Assembly: GCA_964016885.1 (NCBI GenBank)
Contig: OZ024743.1
Coordinates: forward strand, 357,864,001-357,928,000
Length of the DNA: 64,000 nucleotides
Source: Eledone cirrhosa
Lineage: Eukaryota
Reading direction: 5' to 3'
Below, piece after piece: positions 51,140-60,414 of the stretch. The notes under the pieces were generated by a model that ran no database searches, was not told the origin of the DNA, and was given only the letters and a program-made list of their open reading frames with translations. Numbering within the stretch: the stretch's first letter is position 1; each line of letters opens with the position of its first letter. Position numbers and translations under genes: made by a program.

Positions 51140-51792
51140 TTTAATATTATTCTTTCTGTGAATATGTCATTGCCTTATAATCTCCCTATAACACAGTTTG
51201 TATACTTTTCATTAAATTTTGTTAAATAAGTTTTACTAGAGTTTTGAGAAAGGACATTAAGTCGACCGGATAGCTTCTTAATGTCCCGAAAATTACACTC
51301 TACAACCTTTATTATTGAACATATATTGTGTCGCTCACAGAGGACATACTGTTCTGTTATATACATAAGACATTATATAGGCTAAATTACTCCAAGGAAA
51401 TCATAGTCGAAGAGATGGTCGCGTCTGGAATACTTTTTATCATGAATCATCTTGATTAAGAGAGAATATTTGTCAATTAATTGGAGGAGAAGGAAAGAAC
51501 AGGAGGGAAAGCGGCAACAATAAAACAGAAAATATATGCTGGAATTTACCAGGCAGAAAACAGTTGATACAGGGATGTAGTGCAAGTATGCTGGTCCAAT
51601 AACACAGAAGTCTGTTGATTCATACTACACTCTGTCTATATGTTATTACCGTATAATTTCACTATAACATATTTTGTCTTCTTCTTCTTCTTCTTCTTCT
51701 TCTTCTTCTTCTTCTTCTTCTTCTTCTTCTTCTTCTTCTTCTTCTTCTTCTTCTTCTACTTCTTCTTATTATTATTATTATTATTATTATTA

Positions 51793-54115
51793 CAGCTGCA
51801 TTTATCTTGCTTTATGTTCATACGAGTTATCACCAAGTCACAACCAGTGACCTCAAGAGACAACAAGGTCCGCCATGTTCAAGAAAGAACATACATACTC
51901 ACACATGCATCTTTAGGTGTTTAGACTTGTGATGTACTTATATTGACAGAATCTTCCTTAGTATATGGGCAGTTCCTATTAGTACTATCTTTTGTATTTC
52001 TCCTACGCGGTTTCCTGGGATTTACGATAAGTAATCATTAGACCCCTTAGGTATCATTCCTAGAGCGCCTACAACCACTGGTATTGTTTTAGTTCTCAAT
52101 TTCCACATTTTTCCCATTTCTATCTCCAGGTCCTTATACTTGCTCAATTTTTAAAATGTTTTTATAGATACATTCTTGTCTATTGGAACGGACATATCAA
52201 TTAGCAGGCATACCCTCTTTTTAAAGTCCTTCAATATTATATCAGGTCTATTTTCATCTATTTTTCGGTCTGTTTGGATGCTAAAGTTCCACAAGATTGA
52301 GATGTGATCTTTTTCAAGTATGGGAGGTGGTTGATGCTCCCACCAATTCTTTTGATGGGGCAGGCCAAAATGCTTACACATTATCCAATGTATGTATTGT
52401 GCAGGTCTGTCATGCCTGTTTAGGTATTCGGTTGGAGCTATAGGACTGCACATTGAAATTATATGGTCAATGGTCTCTGGTTGTTTTTTACATACACGGC
52501 ATAATGGGCTGCATCCATTTTTTATTATGTTGGCTTGGTAATTTTTTGTTGGCAGACACTGATCTTGTGCTGATATAATCAGTCCTTCAGTCTCCGATTT
52601 CAGTCCAGAGGATGCCAACCACTGATGGGTTAAAGTTTTGTCAACATCAGGATTGTTAGCTCGTTCTGGGTATTTTCCATACAGAAGCTTTTCTTGACAT
52701 TTCTTAGCCAGTTTCTGTAGCAGTTCTTTCTTTGCAGTTACTTTTATCTGCTTTGCTTTTTCTGTGTTTTCCATTTCAGCAATAAATGGGACTTCTGAAA
52801 TGTGTAGTCCATTACTGTATCTTTGTGCATCTTTTGTAATGGAGTATGATCTTTTGATGCTTTCGTGTTTCAAAACAAGTTTGATCATCCAATCATGTGA
52901 GTCCCTTAGATATGTAGATAATCCAATTGTTGGAGTTTTCAACGCAATGTCTAACTGGATTAACCCACGTCCTCCTTCTTTCCTAGGGAGATATATTCTA
53001 TCTATATCTGCCTTAGGGTGATGCATTCTGCGCATGGTTAAGAATTTTCGAATTTTTGTATCGAGCCTACGGATCTCTGTGCTTGACCAGTTGATGACAT
53101 TGTAACTGTAGGTTACTACTGGTATGGCAAGCGTGTTTATGGCATCGATCCTATTCCTTGCATTCAATTCCGTTCTTAAGATTGCTCTTACTCTGCGGTA
53201 ACATTCTTTCCTTATCCTTTCCCTCATTGTCGAGTGCTTGATTCTGTCTCCTTCACAAACACCTAGATATTTGTAAGTTTCCTCTTGATCAAGTTCTCTT
53301 ATCACATTCCCTCGATCAAGATTAATGTCTGAACTTTTCAGCAGCTTTCCTCTGGTGAACGTTGCTTTGGCGCATTTATCTAGTCTAAACTCCATTTTAA
53401 TGTCATCAGTGAACTGCTCCACAGTGGATAATAGCCCTTGCAATTGTTCATCATTTTTTGCAAATAGTTTCAGGTCATCCATGTAGAACAAGTGATTAAT
53501 GGTTTTGTCATAGACTTTATATCCATGTTTTGTTTCATTGAGCATTTTACTTAATGGTATAAGTGCGATGCAGAGTAAATGCGGTGATAAAGAGTCACCC
53601 TGAAAAATTCCACAATTAATATTAACTTCTCCAGCTTCCAGTGATTTTGTTTCACTATTCAAAAGGAGTGTCGTTTTCCATGTCTTCATACTGAATGACA
53701 AAAACCTCCTGACAACAGGGGATATTTTGAAAATCTCTAAACATTTTTCAATCCAACTGTGTGGCAAAGTATCGAATGCTTTTTTATAATCTATCCAAGC
53801 AATTGATAGATTTTTGTGTCTATTATGACAATCTTCCAGTATCATTTTGTTAACCAAAAGCTGATCCTTACAGCCATATGAGCCTCGTTTACACCCTTTC
53901 TGCTCAATGGGAAATAGGTCATTTGTTATCAGGTGTACATTCAGTTAGGACTGATGTTAAAATGTTATACATTGTGGTCAAGCAAGTTATCGGTCTGTAA
54001 TTTTGGGGATTGTTTGTCTCATCATTCTTCGGAAGCAGGAATGTAATGCCGTTAATTAGCCATGATGGTATCTTTTCTGGCTCCTTAACTATTTCATTGT
54101 AAAGTGCCATAGTTG
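51793..54115 (-). mobile_element. 5'-truncated R4-clade (Dong/Rex6-like) non-LTR retrotransposon with (TAA)n tail
   Basis: RT motifs ([44 protein letters not shown]), CCHC finger [17 protein letters not shown] motif, RLE nuclease RPDI..IDMSVP..KYKDL, C-terminus PVVVGALG..IQKIVLIGTAHILRKILSI*; short 3' UTR, then (TAA)n. Confidence 0.9.
51938..54110 (-). pseudogene. disrupted RT / restriction-like endonuclease ORF of the R4/Dong-like element
   Basis: 568-aa open segment 52151-53857; the frame continues through two premature stops to the true stop at 51938-51940; the upstream RT piece 53919-54110 is frameshifted. Confidence 0.88.
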
Positions 54116-54862
54116 TTGACGTTTGGCCAGTGGCCGGGTCACTAAGTCAATCTATTTATATCTTTTGATAGCCTCTCCCTTGTCTAGTGATACCGCCACC
54201 TTCCCCTTTCTTAAGTTAACAGAAGGTAATGGGGGAATAGTGGTGGTAGCAATGAAGGAGTGGTGGCGGCGGTGATGGGATAGTGGTAGCAATGATGGAT
54301 GGAGTGGTGGCGGCGGTGGCGTTGTCGTTACTGAGTTTTGTTGAATAGACTAGTTTTGTTTGATCTGAAGTATCTATGCGTTTGTGTCGCGCATGTTTAA
54401 TATATGTGTTGACATATTCCCTTAATATTGGAATTAAACATTTTGTTAAAACTTGAGACAATAATAATAGTAATTATTATTATGATGCTGGGATTGGTGG
54501 TGGTGGTGGTGGTGAAATTGCCGTTATCTGGCTGTTGTATTTAGTGTACACAGCGGGGTAGGTGGTGTATCTAGTTTCTGGTGTTGGTGAAATTGCTGTT
54601 ATTTGGCTGTTCTATATAGTGTAGACAGAGGGGGCTTTCTTCCATTTATAACCATTTTCTTTTTTGAATATAAAATGTATAATACAAAATTGAATATTTG
54701 AGCGATATAACAATATATTATGGATCTGAATTTTTATGAGACTTGATTCGGTGCTTTATGCATCATTTGTACTAAGAATTATTATTTCACAATTGATTTA
54801 AATATGTTAAAAATCATAAACTTACGGGAGCGATTTCATGACCTTCTACCACCACGTGCGTC

Positions 54863-54894
<32 letters not shown>

Positions 54895-59910: not shown

Positions 59911-60049
59911 AATTTTTTCATTGTTCTATTATTACATCCTCTGATTCTTGTTTTTTTTACACGCAGAAATGCCCATTTGTACCGACCTGTATTGTCCTAT
60001 ACTGTCCTTAATGTCTACTTTATGTAAACCCTTGTGGTTAATAAAGAAA

Positions 60050-60087
<38 letters not shown>

Positions 60088-60414
60088 ATTATTCTTGCTG
60101 AGAGGGTCGTGAGGACAAAGTCCTCAAACACTCGTTTTTCTGGGTCCTGTCGGAAGCAACTGATTCTAATTGAACTTGTTTGATCCCCAAGCGAGCCCAG
60201 CGGAACTCCTTGATGTTATCACACAATCATGCTGGAGGACCATCCACTGGGTCTCCTGCTACTTGGTTCTTTCCCGCAAAATCTATCAAACGATTCCCCC
60301 CTCAGACATTATTAACCATAAGCTCAGAGTACCGGAGCTGTAATCTCTCAATTTGCAGAAGTAGCGGCTCTACCTGGAGCGACTTCTCTGAGCTACTCTT
60401 CAGACGAACCTCCA

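What the first reader, a model, noticed from the sequence alone, without database searches (positions are those of the whole stretch)
51677..60414. The microsatellite acts as a landing pad: ~8.3 kb nest of retrotransposons splits one unit at the (TTC)/(TTA) tract
Seen: pseudogene C (~51565), (TTC)n(TTA)n, R4/Dong-like element, unknown 0.75 kb segment, (TTA)n, second Dong-like fragment, (TTA)n, Tx1-like element, (TTA)n, then the unit resumes at the RTE fragment (60094). Every junction except the one at ~54115 is in (TTA)n, and both Dong-like copies have (TAA)n on their coding strand. Known: Dong elements (R4 clade) are TAA-microsatellite specific. Inference: a cascade in which one LINE's tail creates the target for other site-specific retroelements, which are thus housed in a tRNA array without hitting the tRNA genes. 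No such insertions occur in the 23 homogenised units, whose tracts are essentially pure TTC without (TTA)n.
Basis: partly seen in the sequence, partly recalled or inferred. Interest (0 to 1): 0.78.

Follow-up and report, generated by a model that had tools for sequence, protein, structure and literature searches.

The report
Retrotransposon pile-ups in TAA microsatellites
Three retrotransposons of two unrelated kinds sit stacked in one short TAA repeat inside a tRNA gene array; the same stacking occurs across this genome, likely because each new copy leaves more TAA repeat to land in, and just beyond the window one such repeat holds 21 near-identical retrotransposons in a row.

Summary
The nest is in the assembly as described, but it holds three LINEs, not four pieces: a Dong/R4-like element with a 1.9-kb internal deletion (the 'unknown 0.75 kb' is its 5' UTR, so the odd junction is a deletion), a very young 362-bp Dong-like fragment, and a broken full-length Tx1-like element. 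Target preference holds: elsewhere 83 of 91 Dong-like 5' junctions follow (TAA)n and 24 of 24 full-length Tx1-like 5' ends follow (TTA)n, against about 0.3% of random positions. The tRNA-array reading fails: the families are very abundant genome-wide, and 1 of 24 arbitrary 10-kb windows held the same Dong-Tx1-Dong nest. The RTE tail is (GAA)n, so it did not supply the TAA target. In the array, 5 of 6 TTA-bearing units carry insertions versus 0 of 34 pure-TTC units (partly circular). The stronger find lies 4.5 kb past the window: another unit is split by 128.5 kb holding 21 head-to-tail Tx1-like copies, 20 with both ORFs intact, sharing a local spacer yet as diverse as the whole young subfamily. 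No public run confirmed either structure. Verdict: new variant of known microsatellite-targeting and tandem-TE systems.

The parts
50569..50642 (+). tRNA-Met gene opening the interrupted array unit (initiator type by sequence features; that label is recalled knowledge)
   Evidence: ARAGORN; Rfam RF00005
51677..51765 (+). (TTC)n tract; likely the (GAA)n tail of the unit's RTE fragment
   Evidence: RTE 3' end abuts pure TTC in 6 other units
51766..51792 (+). (TTA)9: tail of Dong-like A plus target remnant
51793..54105 (-). Dong/R4-like family A, RT-CCHC-RLE and 3' UTR; 96.5% to positions 2576-4894 of full-length copy L151; carries stops
   Evidence: best match among fetched copies 97.8%
54103..54864 (-). 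5' UTR of the same Dong-like A element (the 'unknown 0.75 kb'); joined to the RT by a ~1.9-kb internal deletion with 3-nt microhomology
   Evidence: 86-96% ungapped identity to 12 listed UTR copies, 9 of which run on into the family A ORF start
54863..54903 (+). (TTA)10 plus TTG variants: tail of Dong-like B and target
54904..55265 (-). Dong/R4-like family B, 5'-truncated 362-bp fragment (RLE end and 3' UTR), 99.7% to a full-length copy: youngest insertion
55264..55323 (+). (TTA)20 between the head-to-head 5' ends of Dong-like B and the Tx1-like element
55324..60052 (+). Tx1-like LINE with both ends (ORF1; APE-RT ORF2), broken by deletions of about 550 bp (58349) and 590 bp (59908), a small rearrangement near 59390 and stops
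60053..60094 (+). (TTA)n: Tx1-like tail and target remnant
60095..60412 (-). 5'-truncated RTE-like fragment, a standing part of the array unit (RTE label from recalled C-terminal motifs, not tested against named references)
60797..60870 (+). next tRNA-Met gene
61493..61666 (+). SINE-like element inserted in the TTA run of the next unit

Best explanation
The stretch is a nest of three LINEs from two unrelated lineages sitting in one (TTA)n run, and it likely grew by repeated target-primed insertion into TAA/TTA repeat, which both lineages prefer genome-wide and renew with their own tails. Shown: Dong-like elements read (TAA)n on their coding strand at both ends, Tx1-like elements read (TTA)n, so they enter the same double-stranded repeat in opposite orientations; nests of this make-up occur outside the tRNA array. 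Inferred: a short TTA run arose inside the unit's TTC tract by mutation and slippage or from a TTA-tailed SINE; the Tx1-like element and Dong-like A came first (order between them unknown) and decayed by deletion; Dong-like B inserted last between their 5' ends. The tRNA array is a bystander host: insertions are possible only in units that have a TTA run.
For: 5' junction tally in 223 fetched loci (1.26 Mb): Dong-like A 29 of 31, B 54 of 60 preceded by (TAA)>=3; Tx1-like full-length 24 of 24 and truncated 7 of 13 preceded by (TTA)>=3, none by TAA; random positions 65 and 37 of 20,000. A second Tx1-like subfamily: 30 of 30 5' ends after (TTA)>=3, 12 directly behind another Tx1 3' end. Arbitrary window L162 holds DongA-(TAA)5-Tx1-(TAA)19-DongB-like. 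Abundance: 150 of 150 scored hits 100% identical to the B fragment protein, all on C1; 1,604 exact 5' ends of one Tx1 subfamily. Units: 5 of 6 with TTA carry insertions, 0 of 34 pure-TTC (Fisher p 9e-6, 5e-4 if the three SINE units count once). Dong target (TAA)n in insects, molluscs and cnidarians: PMC7998251 passages.
Against: 6 of 13 truncated Tx1-like and 7 of 82 truncated Dong-like junctions lack the repeat (some look like later rearrangements, not checked one by one). For full-length copies an upstream repeat could come in with the transcript. The tally loci were picked as hits to these families, not at random. The unit test is circular (insertions bring TTA) and the 22 homogenised units are not independent. 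Target-site duplications cannot be read inside a microsatellite. No public run bridged any junction of this copy.
Confidence: 0.82

Rival explanations
1. The elements use the tRNA array as a specific safe harbour.
For: Two large nests and a SINE sit in this one cluster, and no tRNA gene was seen interrupted by these families.
Against: Tens of thousands of first-look candidates per family across many contigs; none of the flanks listed for dispersed copies was tRNA unit sequence; the unit anchor motif occurs only in this cluster, 32 hits; a like nest in 1 of 24 arbitrary windows.
Confidence: 0.06
2. The nest is an assembly misjoin through TTA runs.
For: Every insertion junction is in a repeat; no public run holds this exact copy (best share of words 0.61) and no listed contig bridged a junction.
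Against: Left and right flanks join into one ordinary unit matching the empty unit at 49740; no N gap in the nest; the same nest type is common elsewhere.
Confidence: 0.06
3. The 0.75-kb UTR and the RT part come from two different Dong-like A copies joined by recombination or deletion across a tandem pair, so the nest held four insertions.
For: Tandem Dong copies are common; the UTR matches other copies less well (86-96% ungapped) than the RT does (97%).
Against: The pieces are collinear, same strand, same family, joined at 3 nt of microhomology with no TAA remnant; UTRs vary widely among family A copies anyway.
Confidence: 0.06

Closest known systems
Dong (R4 clade), Bombyx mori and relatives
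   Same: Single ORF with RT, CCHC and PD..D restriction-like nuclease; (TAA)n target (PMC7998251 passages).
   Different: Two families only 36% identical in protein with related 1.1-kb 5' UTRs (72% over the first 350 bp), at very high copy number, forming mixed nests.
Microsatellite-targeting Tx1 elements: Kibi (TC)n, Koshi (TTC)n, crocodilian (TTCC)n/(TTTC)n families
   Same: Two ORFs, APE-RT, insertion into a microsatellite (PMC4494074 passages).
   Different: Target here is (TTA)n, the other strand of the Dong target; not found in searches of the held library (Repbase and the 2004 source paper were not seen).
Tandem TE arrays from insertion-site preference: Drosophila R1 array, hobo ~16 copies, telomeric HeT-A/TART
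   Same: Head-to-tail copies separated by target sequence; dimers common during activity (PMC5932611 passages).
   Different: The 21-copy array lies in a microsatellite of a tRNA array, has no truncated copy, 20 of 21 intact, and its variation is mostly synonymous and shared with dispersed young copies.
Octopus Dong-R4 and L1-Tx1 repeat classes
   Same: Both are listed as recently active in Octopus vulgaris (1,129 and 421 insertions; PMC13282606 Table 1 passage) and expanded in coleoids (PMC8967140 passages).
   Different: The passages seen say nothing of targets or nests ('nested' 0 occurrences in both). The host here was not identified; an octopod-like animal is my inference only.

Membership tests
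R4/Dong | Single ORF with RT, C-terminal CCHC and restriction-like endonuclease, no APE | tested here: met
   ORFs of 1216 and 1141 aa; RVT_1, no Exo_endo_phos; CCHC, RHD, PD..D motifs; only R2 proteins among solved relatives
R4/Dong | Insertion into (TAA)n on the coding strand | tested here: met
   83 of 91 5' junctions, 75 of 82 truncated
R4/Dong | N-terminal Myb/SANT-like domain without zinc fingers | not tested
   Only a W-x-x-E-x-N motif noted; no profile comparison run
R4/Dong | RT phylogeny inside the R4 clade | not tested
   One search returned no named R4 or Dong reference among the 120 listed of 1,025 hits, so no tree was built
Tx1 clade | ORF1 with CCHC knuckle; ORF2 with APE, RT and zinc finger; L1 group | tested here: met
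   best solved relative human L1 ORF2, E 1.7e-52
Tx1 clade | Target-sequence preference | tested here: met
   24 of 24 and 30 of 30 full-length 5' ends after (TTA)>=3 (overlapping sets); truncated only 7 of 13
Tx1 clade | RT phylogeny with Tx1, Kibi, Koshi | not tested
   No named references fetched
tRNA-gene or tRNA-array specific elements | Copies confined to tRNA genes or their spacers | tested here: not met
   Dispersed genome-wide; unit anchor only in this cluster
TE-derived tandem array (R1 type) | Head-to-tail copies with a shared junction sequence | tested here: met
   21 copies; one spacer at 13 of 20 junctions, 13 of its 18 genome-wide hits
TE-derived tandem array (R1 type) | Expansion from one dimer by unequal exchange (array forms its own clade) | tested here: inconclusive
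   Array copies interleave with dispersed young copies and neighbours are not more alike (p 0.34), yet 9 of 21 have no private change and one pair is identical

The most novel reading that the evidence does not exclude
The 21-copy Tx1-like array next to the window is a self-renewing master locus: read-through transcripts carry the spacer and steer new copies back to junctions of the same array, so an intact, selected LINE population is kept in one microsatellite of a tRNA cluster and seeds the genome's youngest ~300 copies, much as telomeric retrotransposon arrays renew themselves.
Probability: 0.2. Interest if true: 0.78.

Novelty: new variant of a known kind. Interest (0 to 1): 0.5.

Why it matters
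It shows two unrelated nuclease types converging on one microsatellite from opposite strands and feeding each other targets, a simple engine for repeat clumping and genome growth in this animal (Dong- and Tx1-like sequence covers about 6% of 24 arbitrary windows). The neighbouring 21-copy array catches a LINE on the way to becoming a satellite with nearly all copies intact, and makes the source-or-sink question for tandem LINEs testable with RNA and long reads.

Tried and rejected
DNA search with the B fragment found nothing because common words are skipped; protein and pattern searches replaced it. Idea that the 0.75-kb piece is another LINE's 3' end or a Tx1 5' end: rejected. Shared 5' module between Dong and Tx1: no BLAST support (best E 0.058). 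Ribozyme or other RNA family in the nest or 5' UTRs: no credible Rfam hit. First junction tally broke full-length copies into pieces and was replaced. First reading that the 21-copy array is a purely local duplication (against 18 mixed-age dispersed copies) was dropped when its marker allele proved to be in 296 copies genome-wide and young singles were as close as array copies are to each other. Reads: 7 coded runs laid as contigs (X1, X2, X4-X8; at most 4 studies) hold the families but no listed piece bridged a junction of this copy; lists were cut, so this is no evidence either way. Homologue search gave no useful names. No earlier scan notes near this place. Rows left out: loci overlapping the window nest and the 21-copy array, elements whose 5' junction fell outside the locus, and 3' ends under 88% identity.

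Full report
Setting. The window is G000:C4:357864001-357928000 of a 3.0-Gb animal genome. It holds 31 tRNA-Met genes: a homogenised block of 23 at about 1.55-kb spacing, then degenerate units. Each unit has a tRNA gene, two decayed copies, a (TTC)n tract, an RTE-like fragment and a CA tract. The host was not identified; the repeat make-up resembles octopods, which is inference.

Observation. The unit opened by the tRNA at 50569 is split after its TTC tract by 8,260 bp (51793-60052) and resumes at the RTE fragment, as in the empty unit at 49740. TTA runs stand at 51766, 54863, 55264 and 60053. None of the 22 homogenised tracts has a (TTA)3 run.

Anatomy. Against natural full-length copies from the same genome, 51797-54105 matches positions 2576-4894 of Dong-like family A (96.5%) and 54114-54867 matches its positions 4-683. 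The unknown segment is thus that element's 5' UTR, joined to the RT by a 1.9-kb deletion with 3 nt of microhomology; 9 of 12 listed UTR matches run on into the family A ORF about 400 bp later, and public contigs continue on each side of the joint as intact family members would (loose ends at 54105 and 54114). 54904-55265 is the last 362 bp of Dong-like family B (99.7%). 55324-60052 is a Tx1-like element with both ends, two deletions and stops. Every true insertion junction is therefore in TTA repeat. A and B encode single ORFs of 1216 and 1141 aa, 36% identical, with RT, CCHC, RHD and PD..D motifs; their solved relatives are R2 proteins (run on A). The Tx1-like ORF2 has APE, RT and a zinc finger, nearest to human L1 ORF2. 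No tree with named references was built.

Target or tail. In 223 loci (1.26 Mb, chosen as family hits, neighbours or arbitrary windows), 29 of 31 family A and 54 of 60 family B 5' junctions follow (TAA)>=3 on the coding strand, including 75 of 82 truncated ones. Tx1-like 5' ends follow (TTA)>=3 in 24 of 24 full-length and 7 of 13 truncated copies, never TAA. Random positions score 65 and 37 of 20,000. The two lineages thus use the same duplex repeat from opposite strands. A TTA-tailed SINE is laxer (20 of 60 after (TTA)>=3) and several copies show duplications starting with TTA, so it likely seeds new runs (read by eye).

Not special to the tRNA array. The B fragment protein has 150 of 150 scored hits at 100% identity, all on C1, from 38,403 candidates; A and Tx1 give 33,316 and 44,097 candidates (candidates are not copy numbers). 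Their flanks are mostly each other. One of 24 arbitrary 10-kb windows holds A-(TAA)5-Tx1-(TAA)19-B-like, the same make-up. The unit anchor motif occurs only in this cluster (32 hits).

Seed of the cascade. In 6 units the intact RTE 3' end abuts pure or near-pure TTC, and dispersed relatives end in GAA-rich tails, so the RTE likely gave the TTC tract but not the TTA. Over the cluster, 5 of 6 TTA-bearing units carry insertions and 0 of 34 pure-TTC units do (p 9e-6, or 5e-4 counting the three SINE units once). The test is partly circular and the units are not independent. Order is inferred from identity to fetched copies: Tx1 (93-97.5%) and A (97.8%) older, B (up to 100%) last.

Beyond the window. 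The unit whose tract starts at window-scale 68437 is split until 196989: 21 head-to-tail copies of a second Tx1-like subfamily (C4:357932479-358059755), a SINE and a truncated older Tx1, with no N gap. 20 of 21 keep both ORFs; they differ by 14 substitutions per 6 kb on average, range 0-42. The subfamily has 1,604 exact 5' ends; the first 100 listed form 77 singles, 8 dimers, 1 trimer and 1 tetramer, so 21 is far outside that distribution. One spacer stands at 13 of 20 junctions and at only 5 other places in the genome, which argues against a chimera of dispersed tandems. Yet the array is not one clade: diversity within it (14.1) is close to that among 16 dispersed young copies (16.8) and between the two (15.6); 21 of 23 shared variable sites also vary outside it; differences are 44 synonymous to 30 non-synonymous where 30% synonymous is expected (p 2e-7); neighbours are no more alike than chance (p 0.34). 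Intactness itself is just youth: 15 of 15 young singles are intact. On the other side, 9 of 21 array copies have no private change against 0 of 16 singles (p 0.005), and a 5-copy tandem on C2 has four near-identical members and one long shared spacer. My reading: several independent insertions from active lineages plus local duplication or conversion (about 0.6); self-renewing source locus 0.2; misassembly of number or order 0.15; other 0.05.

Reads. No public run holds this copy (best share 0.61); contigs laid on two parts of the nest bridged no listed junction. Both structures rest on the assembly alone.

Literature. Seen as passages only: PMC7998251 (Dong target (TAA)n), PMC4494074 (Tx1 targets), PMC4640811, PMC5932611 (tandems from site preference, R1 array), PMC13282606 and PMC8967140 (cephalopod repeats), PMC3747384. 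Kojima and Fujiwara 2004 was seen only as cited there. No supplements were opened; those of PMC4494074 and PMC13282606 may list targets or families that bear on novelty. Searches showed no report of a (TTA)n-targeting Tx1, of Dong-Tx1 nests, or of such a Tx1 array; the library lacks most subscription papers and Repbase.

Verdict. The nest is a well-supported, locally ordinary example of a genome-wide process built from known element types; the opposite-strand sharing of one target and the 21-copy array are the new aspects. Interest 0.5.

Noticed in passing
   Followed up: yes
L262-L266 (G000:C2:188.05-188.08 Mb): Five tandem copies of the same young subfamily with an identical long spacer, four nearly identical and one of another haplotype; spaced hits near C1:441.10-441.14 Mb and C2:110.32-110.35 Mb suggest further tandems.
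   Followed up: partly
L145 versus L232; array copy c03: The two Tx1-like subfamilies share ORF2 (96.5% protein identity) but have different 5' UTRs and ORF1 (44% over the aligned part): a likely 5' module swap.
   Followed up: partly
window 2254-36550: The homogenised units lack about 210 bp of the RTE 3' end that the degenerate units keep, so the homogenised block looks derived.
   Followed up: partly
window 61493-61666; L180: One SINE insertion in a TTA run is shared by three units, so it was copied with the unit; unit 49740 has the same compound tract without it.
   Followed up: partly
window 48319-49115: About 0.8 kb of non-unit sequence with 81-bp internal repeats, beginning TGT and ending ACA; could be a solo LTR-like piece. 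Seen only.
   Followed up: no
window 38900-48000: Scrambled and inverted fragments of the tRNA unit between the homogenised block and the nest.
   Followed up: no
window 1730-1929: 200-N assembly gap at the left edge of the homogenised block, so its true length may be greater.
   Followed up: no
L151 and L031, 5' UTRs: The two Dong-like families have related 5' UTR starts (72% over about 350 bp) despite 36% protein identity; G+C-rich stretches before the ORFs gave no credible Rfam hit.
   Followed up: partly
window 59284-59431: Short inverted duplication inside the Tx1-like ORF2.
   Followed up: no
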